From a virus: a stretch of 64,000 bases of DNA. The stretch is taken from positions 1-64,000 of the IMG/VR virus record IMGVR_UViG_3300037137_001673. One strand, 5' to 3'. How positions within the stretch are numbered: position 1 is the stretch's first letter; each line of letters begins with the position of its first letter. The notes beneath the pieces were generated by a model that was given only the letters and a program-made list of their open reading frames with translations, was not told the DNA's origin and did no database searches. The position numbers and the translations under genes are program-made. Of the stretch, positions 49,135 to 64,000 are shown piece by piece.

Positions 49135-49397
49135 AAAAATAGCTGACGTAACGACGCCAGCTTATCGTTCGAACTTTCCCGAAAGTCATATGTCTTTCCA
49201 TATGTCAAAAGTCTTTCCTTCTGCCAGACAAGTTGCGCTAGTAAAATAACATACTATACAGCAACTATGTCCCATTTTAACTTCAAGGTATACTAAGCAC
49301 TGCTGTGACTTCCATGTTCAGAAACATCGCTATATTAGTAATAGGTTGTTTAACTGTGAAAGTAGCTAGCGTGGCGGTTCACCGAAGAAATGGTTTA
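49135..49397 (-). ncRNA. Candidate structured RNA A in tRNA-Trp 3' trailer
   Basis: Three tandem TG(A/G)C-stem-GAAAG hairpins then terminator; shares motifs with 61833-62212. Confidence 0.55.
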
Positions 49398-52982: not shown

Positions 52983-54929
52983 TTATAGTAGCATTCTTTC
53001 ACAATTATAAATATAGTTCCCATTTTTATAAGAGAACCAAACTACTTCTTCATACCAATCTTCCCAGTTTAACCACCTAATTTTAGAGCAGAGAATTTTA
53101 TATTGAACCTCTTTTTCCACTAGCTCAATTTCAATTCCTCTCAAAATTGCTTGGTAACACTCCCATATATTATAACTTAAATTTAAATTCTTGTCAAATC
53201 CTTGAAATGGTAGTTTTAAAAGAGTTTTATTTAATAATAAACTTTCGTGAAGTAGTTTTTCAAAACCAAAAGTATCTATTTTTGTTAAATAATCTGTAAG
53301 TATCTTTTCTGCTTCTACATAAAACTCATTTAATCTATTACTTTTAATTATGTCAATAAATTTATATTCATCAGTAGGCCACCAGATATTTAACCATTCT
53401 TTTGATTCACAATGAGGAATTTCTCCATTTTGTGTTTCCAATGCTTTTTTAGTAAAAAAAGAAATTATTTCTTCAAAAATTCCTGTAGATTTATTTTCAG
53501 TAAAAATTTCAGCTAATTTTCTAAAACTTATTCCATAAAATTTATTTAGAATAACAAATGGAATTTGTAGAAGTTTATTAAAGTGTAAAAGAGAAATTAC
53601 CCAAGCAAAAACTTTTGCCTTTATCCAGTCTTCTCTAGTTAAAGTATTTGTTGATGTTACTACTAATTCATTTTCAAAAACTTCTTCTACAGAAAGACTT
53701 CCGTGCCGATTAACAAGTTTCTTTTCCATTATATCAAAACTATATTTTTCTTGATATTCAATTCTTCCCATTTCAGCATTAGGGAGAATATTTAAATCTG
53801 AAAAAGTAATTCTGTTATGTTGTCCGTTTTCTATTATTTCTGAAATTCCATTTACATAAGAATCGTAAGTTTCTTCTGGCAGTCCTAAAATAATGTCTGT
53901 AAAAGCATCCACTCCAATGTTAGTTAATTTCTGTTTTACTTCTTTGAAGTGATTAATTTTCATATTTATTCTTTTTATTGCTTTTAAGGTATCTTCATTT
54001 GTAGATTGAAGGGAAAGAGAAATTGTAGTATTTAATCCAGCTTCTGCTAATAATTTGTAAGTATTATAAGTGTGTTCCTTAAAGTTTTTAGTGCTTTGAA
54101 CTGATATTCCTTCTGGATAACCAAACTTTATTTTATTATCTGCTACAAATTTAATAATTTCATAATCTCTTTCCAGCATTCCAAAATTAGAATCACAGCA
54201 AGTTATAAACTCAATTTTATTATTCTTGAACCATTCTACTTCTTTATAAAGTCTTTCCATGCCAAAAGTAAAAACTCTATTTTGTGTGGCAGAACCCCAG
54301 TCACAATAAGTGCAAGAAAAAGGACAACCTCTATTGGTTTCCCAAAGAGCAATCCAATTTACTTTTGGATTTGCTTTTATTAGTGGCTGGAAGATTTCTT
54401 CTAAAAATGGAGATGGAATACTATTTATTTCAAAAATTCTTGGAGGGTATTGAGAAAGTATTACTTCATTGTTTTTGTCTAAATAATTTATTCCGGAAAT
54501 TTCTCTCCAGTTACGATTAAAAAGATTTTTTAAAATTAAAGTAAAAGTTATTTCTCCATTACCAAGACAAGCCAAATTAACTTGAGGATTTTCTCTTAAA
54601 AATTTTTCTACTTTATCACAAGAAATTCCTGGTCCACCAAAAACGGTTATTACATTAGAATCTCTTTTTTTTAATAGTCTTGCTATTTCTAAAGAAATTC
54701 TTGTATTCCAAGTGTATAAACTAAAAAAAATTATCTCTGCACCAGATAATTCTCTTACTGCTTCTTTTAATGGAATTCTTTTATAGATTGGCAAAAGAAA
54801 TTCAAAATCACTTACATTATCTAAATACTTTTCAGCATATGCTTGTAATAATCCTAACGAATATGGCAAATACTCTTGATTAAAAAAAGAAGTATTTATC
54901 TGAACCATTCCTACTTTAATTTTTTGCAT
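52983..54929 (-). CDS. Cobalamin-binding radical SAM enzyme
   Basis: N-terminal B12-binding FSLYTWN/VFGGP/GNGE; RGCPFSCTYCDW; LGLPEET. Confidence 0.9.
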   Translation of the reverse strand: MQKIKVGMVQINTSFFNQEYLPYSLGLLQAYAEKYLDNVSDFEFLLPIYKRIPLKEAVRELSGAEIIFFSLYTWNTRISLEIARLLKKRDSNVITVFGGPGISCDKVEKFLRENPQVNLACLGNGEITFTLILKNLFNRNWREISGINYLDKNNEVILSQYPPRIFEINSIPSPFLEEIFQPLIKANPKVNWIALWETNRGCPFSCTYCDWGSATQNRVFTFGMERLYKEVEWFKNNKIEFITCCDSNFGMLERDYEIIKFVADNKIKFGYPEGISVQSTKNFKEHTYNTYKLLAEAGLNTTISLSLQSTNEDTLKAIKRINMKINHFKEVKQKLTNIGVDAFTDIILGLPEETYDSYVNGISEIIENGQHNRITFSDLNILPNAEMGRIEYQEKYSFDIMEKKLVNRHGSLSVEEVFENELVVTSTNTLTREDWIKAKVFAWVISLLHFNKLLQIPFVILNKFYGISFRKLAEIFTENKSTGIFEEIISFFTKKALETQNGEIPHCESKEWLNIWWPTDEYKFIDIIKSNRLNEFYVEAEKILTDYLTKIDTFGFEKLLHESLLLNKTLLKLPFQGFDKNLNLSYNIWECYQAILRGIEIELVEKEVQYKILCSKIRWLNWEDWYEEVVWFSYKNGNYIYNCERMLL

Positions 54930-60265: not shown

Positions 60266-60649
60266 TTACATGTGCCAGCTTAAAACCTTTTCTCCATAAT
60301 CAGCTGGACTTCCTGCTAGCAAATCAAGCAATTCTTTTCTTGAACCGCCAACATTAGTTAGCAAGCAAAATAGGATTGTAGAAAAAATAAGACAGGCCAT
60401 AAATGTAGGCAAGAACACAATTATTGATTCTGATTTTTTCATAACCAAAATACAAATAATTATGAGAGAAACAAAATAAATAATTTCTAGTAAAAAACTA
60501 TGAGTTGCCCCACCAATAAATACTCCACCAATATATCCAATAATGGCTGGAACAAGCAATCCTATTAGAAGAACGCCTACTGCTTTCCCTAAAAAATTAT
60601 CCATTTTTCCTTTCCTTAGTCCCACAAATAAAACATGTATTTTACACAA
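60266..60649 (-). CDS. Membrane protein (about three TM segments; true start probably MDNF near 60604)
   Basis: Hydrophobic segments. Confidence 0.55.
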   Translation of the reverse strand: MCKIHVLFVGLRKGKMDNFLGKAVGVLLIGLLVPAIIGYIGGVFIGGATHSFLLEIIYFVSLIIICILVMKKSESIIVFLPTFMACLIFSTILFCLLTNVGGSRKELLDLLAGSPADYGEKVLSWHM

Positions 60650-60966
60650 AGCTTTTCTGCTTTTCGCATTCTTTCTTTGTTTTCATCCATTTCTTTCCAG
60701 TCATCCCTAATGAGTAGTTTCACAAACCACAGCATTTCCTTAAGAACATCAGTGTAAGCTTTGTCCCCATTGACATCTCCCAGTTTTTCAAACTCACTAG
60801 GAAATCCATAGTGATTATGGATTAGGTGAGTAAGTCTAGGAACAATCCATTTACACATTGCTATACCAAAATCCCATACTTCATCATTAGAATAACCACG
60901 AGTTATTTTTTGATAGAGTAGTTTAATTTTATAAGTAATGCTTTTACCAAAATATCCAATACGCAT
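60616..60966 (-). CDS. Hypothetical phage protein
   Basis: RGYS-x-x-EVW, GFP, C-terminal FYLWD. Confidence 0.65.
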   Translation of the reverse strand: MRIGYFGKSITYKIKLLYQKITRGYSNDEVWDFGIAMCKWIVPRLTHLIHNHYGFPSEFEKLGDVNGDKAYTDVLKEMLWFVKLLIRDDWKEMDENKERMRKAEKLCVKYMFYLWD

Positions 60967-60983
60967 ATTTTTTTCCTTTTTAC

Positions 60984-61073
60984 CGGAAAGTAAGAGATTT
61001 GAACTCTTGAACCTTGTTTAAGGGTTGCGGCGTTAGCGGTGCCGTGGTTTTAGCCAGACTCACCCAACTTTCC
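60984..61073 (-). tRNA. tRNA-Ser(GCT)
   Basis: CCGCTAA loop; long variable arm; G73. Confidence 0.87.
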
Positions 61074-61759
61074 TAATTTAAATTTCCTTTAATTTCTGTA
61101 TTTCAGTTTTTTCTTCTTTGCTGATTTCTTCGATGAGTATTTCATTAACGAGTTCATTAAAGGTAATGTCTCGTCTGTGTGCTTCTCTTGCTAGAAAGAG
61201 AAATTCTTCATCGCTTATTTCAACCTCTACATTAACCATTTTTTCCTCGTTCATTTATTGCTCCTTCTTGAAGTATATAATTTGTCCAGAACCATCCTTT
61301 AATAAAACTATAATAATAAGTCTTTTTTTCAATTATTAAAAAGTTAAACATCTTGGATAAATAAATAACTTTATCCATTTATTTAGTATCTCCAGTTGTT
61401 ACTTCTATATTTAATATATCTATATTTACAACTATGTAAGAACTATCGCCAGCTTTTACCTTTGCTAAAGTCATCTTATCTTGTAAATTCCAAACTTCTT
61501 CAATAGTTCCATTGAAATTTATATAAGATACTTTTTTATTTACTAATTTTTCTGCTTCTTCTAATTTCATTTATTTATTTTTCTTCTCAAGAGAGGAAAG
61601 TAATTCATCAACTTCGGAAGCTAGATAAACTTCTGTATGTCTCTCGTTATGGAAAGCATGGGCAATAATCATTGCTGGAGTCATGTCTTTGTAGGCTTCT
61701 ACTAAACAAGTATCTGCCCAATATAACTTCAATTTATTCATTTCCTAACTCCTAAAATA

Positions 61760-61788
61760 ATTATATCACAAATTTTGATTTTTGTAAA
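61760..61788 (-). promoter_or_regulatory. Sigma70-type promoter
   Basis: TTTACA-17-TATAAT with TG extension. Confidence 0.75.
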
Positions 61789-61832
61789 TAACTATTCACG
61801 AAAACCGCCCTTCTGCCACATATATCTTAGAC

Positions 61833-62212
61833 AAAAAAATGGGCACCAGGCTTGCCTACAAGAGCTTACCCAGCACCCATACGGAACTTTCCCCGTAGTC
61901 ATTGTGTCTTTTCCACAACGTCAGTGTAAAAGGTCTGGAAGGTAATTTATTTTTAAGTGTAAATTTCCACTACCACGAAACCACTCCCCGTATCTTTTTC
62001 GAGGCGTCACTTCCATTTACGATGATGGTTGCCTAACGGATACTTTATCAGTCACCTAGTCTTCCCTAGGAGCCATACACATAAACCTTTTCGCTGGCGA
62101 TCAACCCAGCAGTTTTTATTGCTTCGTTCCATATTTAATGATAGGGGAGGCAATAAGATCGCAATTGGTGCGAAGCATCCGCATACGCAGGTGACATTCG
62201 ACAAAAGCGAAC
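61833..62212 (-). ncRNA. Candidate structured RNA B in tRNA(CAT) 3' trailer
   Basis: Shares GTTARRCAACC, ATGGAAGT-S-AC and TGAC/GAAAG hairpins with RNA A; ends in terminator. Confidence 0.55.
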
Positions 62213-62284
62213 TGGTAGGGTCCAGAGTCGAACTGGAATCATTCACCTTATGAGAGTGACAATCTACCATTAATATACCCTACT
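62213..62284 (-). tRNA. tRNA with CAT anticodon (Met or lysidine Ile2)
   Basis: TCACT-CTCATAA-GGTGA; GTTCGAC; lacks initiator 3 G-C pairs. Confidence 0.85.
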
Positions 62285-62410
62285 ACGAAAATGCGAAGAG
62301 AAACGACCGTATCAAGAGAGCATCGAACGAAGTAACCGCATCAATTACAGCGCCTAGCTCTTGGTGGATTCTCAATTAATGAACGCCTTACGGCAGGTCA
62401 TTCTAAAAAA

Positions 62411-62741
62411 GAGAGAGAAAAAAATGGGTAGGATTAACATTTACCTACAAAGTAGATTCACTTTCAGATTATTCAGCCACTACACCCACTCCTCCGTCGA
62501 GAAGGGGCTTGTATGTAGGAAGGATTGAGTACCTTCAAGTCAGGCAGTGAGTAGTGCCATTATAATGGCTCAGGGATTTCTGCCCTTCTCCTTACTAGTT
62601 GTGCGAACCCCAAGGGTTGTACGACCCCCAACTAGCTTTCGTGCTTTATCTGCGCAGCGAACTTCTAGCTCTCACCAGTTCTTCACTGACAAGACGCCTT
62701 ATCCACCTCAATGGATTGTTCGGCAACCAAATTTTTCTCTC
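62411..62741 (-). ncRNA. Candidate ~330-nt end-paired structured RNA
   Basis: GAGAGAAAAA...TTTTTCTCTC closing helix; many GC-rich hairpins; no SD-led ORF. Confidence 0.5.
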
Positions 62742-62925
62742 AAATTTAAAAGAACTATACAACTATTGCCCTTTAGACAATAGAAGATCTGTTCCCACAC
62801 ATGGTGGGTCAGGTTTTAATCGTTCTGACTTTCGCACAGAACTGGGCGACTGCGTCTCTACCGCAATTTTAACCTTAAAGTAGTTTCACCACCATCTAGG
62901 CTGTCCACTACTAAAATTACAAAAT

Positions 62926-63007
62926 AAAGGAACAAGGATTTGAAAGACGAGATGCCCGAAGGCGATAACATTTACAGTGTTGATAACGCCTTTTCATTCA
63001 GTTCCTT
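62926..63007 (-). pseudogene. tRNA-Tyr-like RNA with degenerate D and T arms
   Basis: AAGGAAC/GTTCCTT acceptor; AACA-CTGTAAA-TGTT; GCC-TTCG-GGC variable arm. Confidence 0.55.
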
Positions 63008-63015
63008 ATATTATT

Positions 63016-63044
63016 ATCTTATCACAATGATTGAAAATTGTCAA
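63016..63044 (-). promoter_or_regulatory. Sigma70-type promoter heading non-coding unit
   Basis: TTGACA-17-TAAGAT with TG extension. Confidence 0.7.
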
Positions 63045-63412
63045 TCATCTTCTGTTTCAATTTCCTGTGTGGCAAGATATGAAGTTGTATTTGACAAATA
63101 GGATTGCGACCAACCCCATTGATCTTCAACATAATTTATAGCATCTTGCTCGGAAAGCTTTATTTCTTTTCTTGTGTCTATTGTTACAAAACGAATTGCT
63201 CTATCGTAATCATTTACATGTTCTTCTGGAACTGGCAGAGTAAAAAATACTCTCAACTTTTTTCCAGAAGAAATATTGTCAATGTTCTGCTTTAAAACTT
63301 CTATTGCTTTTTGTTTATAAAGAGCAACCGCTTTTACAAACTTTTCATGATGTTCGTCTCTATTTTTTACTAGTATAGAAATAAGCACATTCTTTTCTAT
63401 CATTAAATCCAT
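63041..63412 (-). CDS. Hypothetical phage protein
   Basis: AAGGAG SD; P-x-x-H-x-x-DYDRAI, YVEDQWGW. Confidence 0.7.
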   Translation of the reverse strand: MDLMIEKNVLISILVKNRDEHHEKFVKAVALYKQKAIEVLKQNIDNISSGKKLRVFFTLPVPEEHVNDYDRAIRFVTIDTRKEIKLSEQDAINYVEDQWGWSQSYLSNTTSYLATQEIETEDD

Positions 63413-63424
63413 ACATTCTCCTTA

Positions 63425-63500
63425 TAGGGCTTATCAGATTTGAACTGATGATTTTAAGATTGAAAATCTTACGTCCTAGACCAAGCTAGACGAAAGCCCC
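63425..63500 (-). tRNA. tRNA-Glu(TTC), second copy
   Basis: TAAGA-TTTTCAA-TCTTA; CGTCTAG...AGGACG D arm. Confidence 0.88.
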
Positions 63501-63654
63501 ATGTTCGATATAAATAGATTGGATGACATATTGCCAGTCGACGGGCAGTTAGTCAGTTGCCCAATCACCTTCTGTGGAATAGTCCCGTTAAGCCATATAG
63601 ACCTTGACTATCAGGTATTAGAACTATCGTCCTAATTTTAGCCGTCGCACATAT

Positions 63655-63755
63655 ACGTTCTTAAGGAATCGAACCGAAATTTCCTAGCTGAGTGGCTAGG
63701 CGTCCTGAAATTTCCAGACGAATGTCCTTTGATTTACTCCATTAGACGAAGAACG
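63655..63755 (-). pseudogene. Glu-like tRNA with duplicated D arm
   Basis: CGTTCTT/AAGAACG acceptor; two TTCGTCT...AGGAC units; CCTAGC-CACTCA-GCTAGG. Confidence 0.55.
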
Positions 63756-63760
63756 CTCGA

Positions 63761-63875
63761 TGGAAACGGTAGGGGTTGAACCTACATTTACTCAGTGGAT
63801 ACTGTCGCTCACACTTTTCTTTACTGCCCTGAATTCTTGTTTTAGATCTAAACTTAATTCATTTCAGTCGTTTCC
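63761..63875 (-). ncRNA. 115-nt RNA with tRNA acceptor stem and T arm only
   Basis: GGAAACG/CGTTTCC plus A; GTAGG-TTCAACC-CCTAC. Confidence 0.6.
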
Positions 63876-63964
63876 GTTAAAAGAGAGAATACTTATAGGG
63901 GCTTAACCTATCATACATCTACTTTAATAGCTACAGAAAAGTAGGTATTCTCTCTTTACTTTTT

Positions 63965-63993
63965 ATTATATCACAATTTTTGTTTTTCGTCAA
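63965..63993 (-). promoter_or_regulatory. Sigma70-type promoter
   Basis: TTGACG-17-TATAAT with TG extension. Confidence 0.75.
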
Positions 63994-64000
63994 ATTAAAA

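What the first reader, a model, noticed from the sequence alone, without database searches (positions are those of the whole stretch)
61833..63044. A ~1.2-kb apparently non-coding transcription unit with an embedded tRNA
Seen: promoter at 63016-63044, then a Tyr-like RNA, hairpins at 62750-62910, a 330-nt end-paired domain (62411-62741), a small element, tRNA(CAT), RNA B and a terminator. GC is clearly above background and no ORF has an SD. A 12-nt near-perfect inverted match (62026-62037 with 62718-62729) spans the tRNA. Established: GOLLD and ROOL are large phage RNAs found at tRNA clusters, and GOLLD can contain tRNAs. Inference: one large ornate RNA, or a polycistron of small RNAs.
Basis: partly seen in the sequence, partly recalled or inferred. 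Interest (0 to 1): 0.72.

Follow-up and report, generated by a model that had tools for sequence, protein, structure and literature searches.

The report
Phage RNA operon with manA-like RNA
This gene-free 1.2-kb stretch of a large uncultured phage is a promoter-to-terminator unit that makes only RNAs (a tRNA, some small hairpin modules and a 335-base folded RNA related to the cage-forming manA RNA), so it is a real RNA gene cluster but not one giant RNA.

Summary
The described features are there: a sigma-70 promoter (63044-63016), ORF-free GC-rich sequence, tRNA(CAT) 62212-62285 and a strong terminator (61878-61833). The 12-nt long-range match is no more than chance.

The unit is a chain of modules, not one giant RNA. 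Related strains in public metagenomes delete or replace whole modules at module borders.

The core, 62411-62741, belongs to an uncatalogued family: 38 non-identical members in IMG/VR, and all 15 Lak megaphage records. Nine sequences give 51 pairs, 90% of cells paired, and 39 pairs with compensatory changes (0 of 500 shuffles).

It scores below threshold on Rfam manA (21-22 bits against 55.2), in two nested ways. It gets no ROOL or GOLLD hit. With one ROOL subclade it shares only two short blocks.

One hairpin loop keeps a self-complementary tetranucleotide in 29 of 29 members, in six variants. This points to symmetric loop-loop pairing between copies, in line with the RNA-only cages reported for manA (2026 preprint).

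A tRNA(CAT) follows within 200 nt in 10 members. An RNA-library contig covers only the core.

This scan met the same class before on other DNA (six notes). I found no paper in the searched library that describes this enlarged family.

The parts
63016..63044 (-). Sigma-70-type promoter with extended -10 (TTGACA, 17 nt, TG-n-TAAGAT). It overlaps the stop codon of the upstream 123-aa ORF.
   Evidence: 10 of 12 matches, TG present. Near-identical copies occur at 69898-69922 and 70432-70464 of the contig.
62921..63010 (-). Not a recognisable tRNA.
   Evidence: Fold -18.4 kcal/mol, z -2.15. No RF00005 hit at E<=10. No ARAGORN call. No homologue among the fetched loci.
62742..62920 (-). Dispensable hairpin module: a three-way junction followed by two hairpins.
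   Evidence: Folds with z -1.4 and -2.0. In run X9 a related contig replaces exactly 62742-62920 by 22 nt, and another skips 62814-62916 (tables 5 and 5c). No homologue among the fetched loci.
62411..62741 (-). Core: enlarged manA-like structured RNA. P1 closing helix pairs 62727-62741 with 62411-62427.
   Evidence: nhmmer with the family profile gives 189.7 bits. Covariation on A4: 51 pairs, 90.2% of cells paired, 39 pairs compensatory, 0 of 500 shuffles reach this. manA RF01745 scores 21.9 bits, E 0.0012. MFE -113.2 kcal/mol, z -3.0.
62697..62724 (-). Pa: hairpin inside the internal loop GCC-GAACAA...UAA-GGC. This is the manA-type 5' element.
   Evidence: Aligned to the manA consensus CUGAAUAA-hairpin-UAAGG. 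Its stem covaries: columns 32-38 with 43-49, 5 of 7 pairs compensatory.
62612..62629 (-). Hairpin with loop CGUACA (62618-62623). The GUAC core is self-complementary. Candidate symmetric kissing loop between copies.
   Evidence: The homologous loop core is self-complementary in 29 of 29 members: GGCC, GUAC, GGCU, GGUC, GCGC, GAUC. Shifted registers give 1 of 28 and 0 of 28. The stems covary.
62519..62536 (-). Pc hairpin GAAGG-UACUCAAU-CCUUC, the most conserved element of the family.
   Evidence: Invariant in alignments A3 and A4. It was used as the search pattern. It is 96% identical over 27 nt to a hairpin of one ROOL subclade.
62468..62518 (-). Pd helix (CUACA/UGUAG) with an inner hairpin, then the strand GUGGCUGAAUAAU. 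This is the second, inner manA-type element.
   Evidence: Columns 256-260 with 290-295 are all compensatory. The inner hairpin has 6 of 7 pairs compensatory. An alternative manA alignment covers 62421-62504 at 21.2 bits, E 8e-5.
62428..62448 (-). Pf hairpin with the loop GGUA...AAUCC. This is the manA-type 3' element.
   Evidence: alignment. Columns 331-335 with 347-351 are 100% paired. Strain variants 62436 and 62441 fall on loop positions that are variable in the manA consensus.
62405..62410 (-). U6 tract directly after the P1 3' strand. Possible partial terminator. It is also the border used by the natural deletion variants.
   Evidence: Read from the sequence. Joints 62287>62405 and 62219>62402. 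U-tracts follow P1 in L019, L165 and L027.
62286..62404 (-).
   Evidence: Fold z -0.56, not distinguishable from shuffles. A related contig skips it. No homologue among the fetched loci.
62212..62285 (-). tRNA with anticodon CAU and an A1xC72 mismatch. It has no promoter of its own.
   Evidence: ARAGORN. RF00005 at 50.6 bits, with non-standard pairs marked at the first acceptor pair and in the D stem. No promoter-like site in 62286-62404.
61879..62211 (-). RNA B: a trailer of hairpins. It is a paralogue of the trailer after tRNA-Trp (49135-49396).
   Evidence: Shared ordered motifs: GUUAnnCAACC, GGAAGUsAC, GAC-stem-GGAAA(A)GA-stem-GAC, and stem-GGGAAAGUU-stem with covarying stems. A strict pattern finds nothing in IMG/VR.
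61833..61878 (-). Intrinsic terminator: a 12-bp stem followed by U7.
   Evidence: -28.1 kcal/mol, z -3.12, 0 of 200 shuffles as stable. The next promoter lies at 61788-61760.

Best explanation
The stretch is an RNA-only operon of a large low-GC phage. One promoter drives a precursor that carries separately folding modules in a row: a leader hairpin, a dispensable hairpin module, a 335-nt structured RNA, a spacer, a tRNA(CAT) and a hairpin-rich trailer. The unit ends at a strong terminator.

The 335-nt RNA is the functional centre. It belongs to an uncatalogued family of enlarged, two-core relatives of the manA RNA. These sit in the tRNA arrays of large phages, often directly beside a tRNA(CAT).

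Proposed mechanism:
1. The tRNA acts as punctuation. RNase P and 3' processing at the tRNA, perhaps with partial termination at the U-tract after the closing helix, release the structured RNA. This step is inferred.
2. The released RNA then pairs with copies of itself through a hairpin loop whose centre is always self-complementary. It builds a dimer or a larger closed assembly, as reported for manA, ROOL and GOLLD. This step is inferred from covariation. No assembly was observed.

What such an assembly does for the phage is not known. My guess is that it binds or shields a component of translation or of RNA turnover during infection. I base that only on the steady linkage to tRNA genes.
For: Shown:
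- The promoter, the terminator and the lack of ORFs.
- The tRNA has no promoter of its own.
- Modules are gained and lost at exact borders in related strains.
- The core has 38 non-identical homologues in IMG/VR, at up to 240 bits by nhmmer. It is also present in all 15 Lak megaphage records.
- Covariation is strong: 39 of 51 pairs are compensatory, 0 of 500 shuffles reach this, and slid controls give 16-23.
- Weak manA hits recur on independent members at 17.7-23.2 bits.
- The loop core is self-complementary in 29 of 29 members, in six variants.
- A tRNA(CAT) is the next gene within 200 nt in 10 members and the previous gene in 2. In L027, L033 and L242 the spacers to the flanking tRNAs are only 3-19 nt.
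- An RNA-library contig from a bioreactor metatranscriptome covers only 62456-62713, at about 95% identity.

From the literature:
- manA RNAs form 8-, 10- and 60-mer RNA-only cages (preprint 10.64898/2026.07.01.735769).
- ROOL and GOLLD form cages. A loop kept palindromic through change was used there as evidence for contacts between copies (PMC12286853).
Against: - The manA scores are far below the gathering score (21-22 against 55.2 bits), so kinship with manA rests on two motifs and the overall layout.
- No assembly, processing site or transcript end was observed.
- The RNA contig could come from contaminating DNA or from PCR copies of a single fragment. It is from a relative, not from this phage.
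- The self-complementary loop could instead bind a symmetric protein dimer.
- Members of the family are related to each other, so counts of sequences overstate the number of independent events.
- The flank modules have no homologues and fold weakly. Their status as functional RNAs is open.
- The tRNA(CAT) linkage holds for about a third of members only.
Confidence: 0.7

Rival explanations
1. The whole 1.2 kb is one giant ornate RNA of the GOLLD/ROOL kind. The tRNA would be embedded in a variable region, and a long-range helix across the tRNA would hold it together.
For: One promoter and one strong terminator bracket the stretch. GC is raised throughout. An 11-of-12 inverted match spans the tRNA.
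Against: - The inverted match is at chance level (observed 1, shuffles 1.37).
- One arm of that match lies inside the conserved local helices P1 and Pa of the core.
- The other arm changes at three positions in relatives (62027, 62031, 62035). No listed change compensates in the partner arm.
- Relatives delete whole modules.
- In other phages the core stands alone between tRNAs.
- There is no GOLLD or ROOL hit at E<=10.
Confidence: 0.05
2. The core is a shortened ROOL RNA ('mini-ROOL'), not a manA relative. It would then assemble as ROOL does.
For: - One ROOL subclade (L024, L031, L036, L038; 341-347 bits on RF03087) carries the same hairpin, 26 of 27 nt identical.
- The same subclade carries the same 15-nt GUAGUGGCUGAAUA block, in the same order.
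- It also has a GCCGAA...AUAAGGC element at the same distance upstream, 185 against 186 nt.
Against: - RF03087 gives no hit on the whole contig at E<=10.
- Two ROOLs found independently of my pattern (L273, L274) lack the hairpin. They share at most the CUGAAUAA strand, E 0.23.
- The core has no counterpart of ROOL's 5' 230 nt. The cryo-EM paper says the 5' and 3' regions of ROOL are intertwined.
- The L024 locus was itself picked by the hairpin pattern.
Confidence: 0.1
3. The core is a cis-acting riboswitch or leader, as manA was first classed. It would control read-through into the tRNA and trailer via the U-tract after its closing helix.
For: manA was proposed as a riboswitch candidate in 5' UTRs (PMC2864571). 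The closing helix and 3' hairpin are followed by a U-tract in this window and in L019, L165 and L027.
Against: - No protein gene lies downstream in the unit.
- In many members the RNA sits between two tRNAs with spacers of 3-19 nt.
- The RNA-library contig covers the core alone.
- manA itself is now reported to form cages.
Confidence: 0.07
4. Only the core and the tRNA are functional. The leader, the hairpin module, the spacer and perhaps RNA B would be lineage-specific filler, for example decayed tRNA genes or remnants of insertions. They would be transcribed but have no role of their own.
For: - These modules have no homologue among more than 300 fetched phage loci.
- Their folds are weak (z -0.6 to -2.2).
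- Close relatives do without them.
- The same contig holds other tRNA-like wrecks, for example 63761-63820 at 16 bits.
Against: - RNA B has a paralogue with ordered motifs and covarying stems at 49135-49396. That argues for selection on at least that module.
- GC stays high through all the modules.
Confidence: 0.3

Closest known systems
manA RNA motif (Rfam RF01745; Weinberg et al. 2010, PMC2864571; cage structures in preprint 10.64898/2026.07.01.735769)
   Same: - A closing helix.
- A 5' element CUGAAUAA-hairpin-UAAGG.
- A 3' hairpin with the loop GGUA...AAUCC.
- Phage origin.
- Repeated weak model hits on independent family members.
- Signs of contacts between copies through loops.
   Different: - 335 nt instead of about 190 nt.
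- The interior is enlarged and holds a second, inner copy of the two elements.
- Scores are 21-22 bits against a gathering score of 55.2.
- It lies in an RNA-only unit beside tRNAs, not in a 5' UTR.
- It comes from a low-GC phage of freshwater and sediment samples, and the family also occurs in gut Lak phages, rather than in marine cyanophages.
- The candidate contact is a symmetric self-complementary loop. The preprint describes contacts between different loops (L5-L7', L8-L9').
ROOL RNA (Rfam RF03087; Weinberg et al. 2017, PMC5737381; Kretsch et al. 2025, PMC12286853)
   Same: - A large structured phage RNA placed in tRNA islands.
- One ROOL subclade shares a near-identical hairpin and a 15-nt strand, in the same order.
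- ROOL also uses a symmetric kissing loop (L18).
   Different: - No model hit at E<=10.
- About 335 nt against about 580 nt.
- No counterpart of the ROOL 5' region.
- The shared hairpin is absent from independently found ROOLs.
GOLLD RNA (Weinberg et al. 2009; Kretsch et al. 2025, PMC12286853)
   Same: It lies in phage tRNA islands. GOLLD env-38 lies next to a Met-tRNA. Loops kept palindromic through change mark contacts between copies.
   Different: No GOLLD match at E<=10 in the all-family scan. It is far smaller. No shared sequence blocks were seen.
Unannotated homologue in the Lak megaphages (for example Prevotella phage Lak-B1, MK250020.1:132331-132649)
   Same: Same family. L027 is 100% identical to the Lak-B1 stretch and aligns to the window's core over the full length. 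It sits between tRNA-Thr and tRNA(CAT).
   Different: The Lak copy has GGCC in the loop where the window has GUAC. It has no leader or spacer modules. The records carry no annotation, so nothing is known about it.
tRNA-punctuated polycistronic RNA precursors (phage T4 tRNA cluster with its stable RNAs; mitochondrial tRNA punctuation); from general knowledge
   Same: Non-tRNA stable RNAs are co-transcribed with tRNAs and can be released by tRNA end-processing.
   Different: Processing was not observed here. The partner RNA is a large ornate RNA, not a small stable RNA.

Membership tests
manA RNA (RF01745) | Covariance-model score at or above the gathering score of 55.2 bits | tested here: not met
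   21.9 bits on 62418-62754. 21.2 bits on 62421-62504.
manA RNA (RF01745) | Closing helix, 5' CUGAAUAA-hairpin-UAAGG element and 3' GGUA...AAUCC hairpin | tested here: met
   The alignment matches both elements. The helices covary in the family.
manA RNA (RF01745) | Size of about 190 nt with a compact interior | tested here: not met
   The core is 331 nt. The model alignment needs insertions of 40, 32, 70 and 82 nt.
manA RNA (RF01745) | Position in the 5' UTR of a protein gene | tested here: not met
   Downstream lie a spacer, a tRNA, an RNA trailer and a terminator.
manA RNA (RF01745) | Assembly into closed RNA-only oligomers | not testable with these tools
   Only indirect evidence: the loop core is self-complementary in 29 of 29 members.
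ROOL RNA (RF03087) | Covariance-model score at or above 99.1 bits | tested here: not met
   No match at E<=10 on the whole 75,970-bp contig, nor in the all-family scan of 60500-64000. The same model scores 341-347 bits on L024 and L031.
ROOL RNA (RF03087) | About 580 nt, six multistem junctions, three pseudoknots, 5' and 3' regions intertwined | tested here: not met
   The core is 331 nt and closed by its own helix. The upstream 179 nt are dispensable in relatives.
ROOL RNA (RF03087) | Location in phage or prophage tRNA islands | tested here: met
   At least 30 tRNAs lie on the same strand of the contig.
GOLLD RNA | Match to the Rfam GOLLD model | tested here: not met
   Not among the matches at E<=10 in the scan of all 4227 families over 60500-64000.
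Enlarged manA-like phage RNA (uncatalogued; defined here by alignments A3 and A4) | Full-length match to the family profile | tested here: met
   189.7 bits over profile positions 3-321. The window is itself one of the nine sequences the profile was built from. The other members score 70-242 bits.
Enlarged manA-like phage RNA (uncatalogued; defined here by alignments A3 and A4) | Helices P1, Pa, palindromic-loop hairpin, Pc, Pd, inner hairpin and Pf, all kept by covariation | tested here: met
   8 helices, 90.2% of cells paired, 39 of 51 pairs compensatory. The window forms all of them.
Enlarged manA-like phage RNA (uncatalogued; defined here by alignments A3 and A4) | Hairpin loop with a self-complementary tetranucleotide | tested here: met
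   The window has CGUACA at 62618-62623.
tRNA (RF00005), for 62212-62285 | Score at or above 29 bits and a cloverleaf with an anticodon | tested here: met
   50.6 bits. ARAGORN reports anticodon CAT.
tRNA (RF00005), for the 'Tyr-like RNA' 62921-63010 | Any match to the tRNA model | tested here: not met
   No hit at E<=10 in the scan of the whole contig. No ARAGORN call.
HDV-like (theta) ribozyme, for 62158-62212 (lead from note e1-6046293) | Nested double pseudoknot P1-P2-P3-P1.1-P4 starting at the tRNA 3' end | tested here: inconclusive
   No HDV-type Rfam family matches at E<=10. By eye, P1 (GUUCGC/GCGGAU), P3 and P4 can be drawn, but I found no convincing P2 partner (sequence, fold).

The most novel reading that the evidence does not exclude
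The core RNA would represent a third size class of self-assembling phage RNA, between manA (about 190 nt) and ROOL (about 580 nt). It shares building blocks with both. In that case manA, this family and at least part of ROOL would form one evolutionary superfamily of RNA-only cages. These would be produced from tRNA operons, and their function would be tied to tRNA(CAT) or to the start of translation in infected cells.
Probability: 0.2. Interest if true: 0.8.

Novelty: new variant of a known kind. Interest (0 to 1): 0.6.

Why it matters
RNA-only cages (ROOL, GOLLD, and now manA) are a recent surprise, and their biological role is unknown. This window adds the following.

- An enlarged manA-like family that no catalogue holds. 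It is widespread in large phages, including the Lak megaphages of the gut.
- A testable contact between copies: a loop that stays self-complementary through six sequence variants.
- A recurrent genomic partner, tRNA(CAT).
- Sequence blocks shared with both manA and one ROOL subclade.

Together these give a concrete construct for assembly tests and a possible handle on function. For genome annotation, the result shows that long 'empty' GC-rich stretches in phage tRNA arrays can be chains of RNA genes.

Tried and rejected
- BLAST of the stretch and of 40000-47900 against 50,697 phage records found no match.
- The one metagenome scan gave a single 1-kb locus with no downstream DNA.
- The viral loci L015 and L016 (37-56% identity) and the radical-SAM neighbours L005 and L006 carry no tRNAs and no copy of the RNA.
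- Pattern scan for block 3 plus the 3' hairpin: too loose, 118+ stretches. It was filtered by nhmmer down to a few true members.
- Genome-contig scan with the hairpin pattern: about as many hits as chance predicts. It was used only to note that L050 equals L020.
- RNA B pattern in IMG/VR: nothing.
- nhmmer with each flank module against all fetched loci: only self-hits.
- A covariance model of the whole core was not built, because the tool's time limit rules out about 340 positions. nhmmer profiles and pair counts were used instead.
- Covariation from strain variants in read laying was not usable: only part of the differences are listed, and 62641 with 62655 do not form a pair in any helix I could support.
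- Parts of the stretch without cover in runs X5, X10 and X13 were given no weight.
- Rfam scans were exhausted (8 of 8), so the added family members (L276-L309) were not scanned with Rfam models.
- The first ROOL search over a bacterial order failed once on the server side and worked on the second try.
Full report
**What the window is.** The window is the first 64 kb of a 75,970-bp IMG/VR contig, estimated to be about 38% complete. It encodes a tail sheath and other myovirus proteins. It also carries at least 30 tRNA genes on the minus strand between 48.8 and 70.5 kb, mixed with homing endonucleases, a B12-binding radical-SAM protein and an RNA ligase. No cultured phage record is similar at the DNA level. 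Public runs that hold near-identical sequence come from sediment, lake water and a bioreactor.

**Check of the observation.** On the minus strand the stretch starts with a promoter at 63044-63016 (TTGACA, 17 nt, TG-extended TAAGAT). The same promoter sequence recurs twice further along the contig. GC is 0.41-0.50 through 61800-62900, against 0.23-0.33 in the neighbouring genes. The longest ORF is 94 aa and lies on the opposite strand, and none of six ORFs has a Pfam match. Related strains carry 1-3-nt indels inside the stretch, which speaks against coding.

The other features check out as follows.
- tRNA(CAT) lies at 62212-62285.
- The unit ends in a 12-bp hairpin plus U7 (z -3.1), and the next promoter follows at 61788-61760.
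- The 'Tyr-like RNA' is not a tRNA by ARAGORN or by the tRNA model at E<=10.
- The 12-nt inverted match is real at 11 of 12. It is the only one in the region, and shuffled sequence gives 1.37 on average.

**One RNA or many.** Contigs of related strains were laid on the stretch.
- One contig replaces exactly 62742-62920 by 22 unrelated bases. Position 62741 is the first base of the closing helix of the core.
- Another contig joins 62405, the end of the U-tract after that helix, to 62287, two bases before the tRNA. The 117-nt spacer is therefore optional.
- Further joints lie inside the hairpin module and inside RNA B.
- nhmmer with each flank module finds nothing in the other phage loci.

In other phages the core sits alone between two tRNAs, with spacers of 3-19 nt. 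The unit is therefore a chain of modules.

**The core RNA.** Rfam gives only a weak manA hit (21.9 bits, E 0.0012). That hit rests on two elements: GCC-GAACAA-hairpin-UAA-GGC, and a hairpin with the loop GGUA...AAUCC.

I used these elements, and later other conserved blocks, as DNA patterns on IMG/VR. With nhmmer profiles as a filter I collected 38 non-identical full or partial homologues. Most come from contigs of 80-550 kb and lie inside tRNA arrays. One member is 100% identical to a stretch of Prevotella phage Lak-B1, and all 15 Lak records have a copy, none of them annotated.

On nine diverse sequences, RNAalifold predicts eight helices with 51 pairs. Of the cells, 90.2% form pairs, against 66% after shuffling and 41-51% when the partners are slid. 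Thirty-nine pairs show compensatory change, which no shuffle out of 500 reaches. This is a real, conserved, folded RNA.

**Relation to manA.** Independent members again give weak manA hits at 17.7-23.2 bits. On the window the model also fits a second way, on 62421-62504 alone (21.2 bits, E 8e-5 for the contig). There its 5' element aligns to the inner strand GUGGCUGAAUAAU.

The RNA thus holds the manA pair of elements twice, one pair nested inside the other. It fails the family threshold, its size and its genomic context (see the membership table). I therefore file it as a relative of manA, not as a member.

**Relation to ROOL.** Four loci found with the central hairpin pattern are true ROOL RNAs (341-347 bits). 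They share three things with the window:
- that hairpin, 26 of 27 nt identical;
- a 15-nt strand;
- a GCCGAA...AUAAGGC element at the same spacing.

However, the ROOL model finds nothing on this contig at E<=10. Two ROOLs retrieved with the model alone, independently of my pattern, lack the hairpin and share at most the CUGAAUAA strand. The link to ROOL is therefore a pair of shared blocks in one subclade. That could reflect common descent, exchange of a module or convergence. Membership in ROOL is excluded.

**How it may work.** One hairpin, at 62612-62629 in the window, has a 6-7-nt loop. Its central four bases are self-complementary in all 29 members where I could place it: GGCC 16 times, GUAC 6, GGCU 3, GGUC 2, GCGC 1 and GAUC 1, counting G-U pairs. 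Shifting the register by one base gives 1 of 28 and 0 of 28. Reshuffling the six distinct types keeps all of them self-complementary in 1.6% of trials. The stems below the loop covary.

Adjacent bases of one loop cannot pair within one molecule. The simplest reading is therefore a symmetric loop-loop contact between two copies. The same argument was used for OLE and GOLLD (PMC12286853). A 2026 preprint reports that manA RNAs form 8-, 10- and 60-subunit RNA-only cages held by kissing loops. I therefore propose that this RNA self-assembles. This is an inference: nothing here shows an assembly.

**Expression and processing.** A metatranscriptome run from a bioreactor holds a 309-nt contig that covers only 62456-62713, at about 95% identity. 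It has sequencing adapters at both ends and a depth of about 19-24, and nothing from that run lies on the flanks. This fits an abundant, stable core RNA in a relative. It does not prove transcription and does not give natural ends.

The tRNA has no promoter of its own, so it must come from the same precursor. The tight spacing to tRNAs in other phages suggests that tRNA end-processing frees the RNA. The U-tract after the closing helix could also stop part of the transcripts.

**Genomic partner.** The next tRNA within 200 nt downstream is tRNA(CAT) in 10 of the 38 hits. It is the upstream neighbour in two more. In about nine others a tRNA-Ile(TAT) follows at 200-480 nt. The members are related to each other, so this amounts to perhaps four or five independent lineages. 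Some of these tRNA(CAT) genes look initiator-like: C1xA72 in L205 and L190, three G-C pairs next to the anticodon loop in L027, and A1xC72 in the window. I did not classify them formally.

**The other modules.** RNA B (61879-62211) and the trailer after tRNA-Trp (49135-49396) share four ordered motifs and two hairpins whose stems differ but still pair. A strict pattern finds no further copies in IMG/VR.

**Verdict.** This is a real RNA-only operon. Its core is a member of an uncatalogued, enlarged manA-like family. This scan has met the same class before on other DNA (six notes). I found no paper in the searched library that describes the enlarged family.
- the self-complementary loop;
- the blocks shared with one ROOL subclade;
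- the presence of the family in Lak megaphages;
- the natural module deletions.

Noticed in passing
window 63502-63993: The unit just upstream is built the same way. It has a near-consensus promoter (63993-63965), a long hairpin and tRNA-shaped elements with good acceptor and T arms but oversized cores. One of these, 63761-63820, scores only 16 bits on the tRNA model. tRNA-Glu follows at 63424-63501.
   Followed up: partly
window 62212-62285; L205:443-516; L190:2733-2807; L027:1587-1660: The tRNA(CAT) genes beside the core RNA often show initiator-like traits: a 1:72 mismatch (A1xC72 in the window, C1xA72 in L205 and L190), or GGG:CCC next to the anticodon loop (L027). In a sister group a tRNA-Ile(TAT) follows at 200-480 nt instead.
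   Followed up: partly
window 47081-48232 and 52983-54929: An RNA ligase gene (PF09414) lies at the edge of the tRNA array. A 648-aa B12-binding radical-SAM protein lies inside it. Either could act on the RNAs of the array, for example in repair, end-joining or modification.
   Followed up: no
L024:571-1144, L031:5136-5720 (also L036, L038): One subclade of true ROOL RNAs, from phage contigs, carries a hairpin and a 15-nt strand almost identical to those of the manA-like family. ROOLs from Lactobacillales genomes (L273, L274) do not.
   Followed up: yes
L020 (IMGVR_UViG_3300014205_000416) and L050 (JBAYUY010000002.1): The same 38,636-bp contig, carrying a family member, is filed both as a virus in IMG/VR and as a scaffold of a 'Candidatus Shapirobacteria' genome bin. 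Either a phage contig was binned into a CPR genome, or this hints at the host.
   Followed up: no
L219:8583-8953, L193:8429-8800, L041:10180-10608: Phage-encoded tmRNA genes sit next to, or within about 4 kb of, the manA-like RNA in several loci. In L219 the order is RNA, tRNA(CAT), tmRNA.
   Followed up: no
L165:3716-3788 and L301: Suppressor-type tRNAs with anticodon CUA, which ARAGORN labels 'Pyl', follow the RNA at about 1 kb. This suggests phages with a reassigned stop codon.
   Followed up: no
L015:10637-10694 and L016:394-451: In distant relatives of the upstream 123-aa ORF, a near-threshold DUF3800-VIII RNA hit (34.2 bits against 40.2) lies about 300 nt downstream of the ORF. In the window that position holds the RNA operon.
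   Followed up: no
window 62560-62565: A second hairpin of the core (GCCA-UUAUAA-UGGC) also has a self-complementary loop centre. The RNA-library relative lacks two bases there, which could leave UUAA, again self-complementary.
   Followed up: no
contig 69898-69922 and 70432-70464 (beyond the window): Copies of the operon's promoter sequence at 91-92% identity. This fits the array of short promoter-delimited RNA units noted by another reader.
   Followed up: partly
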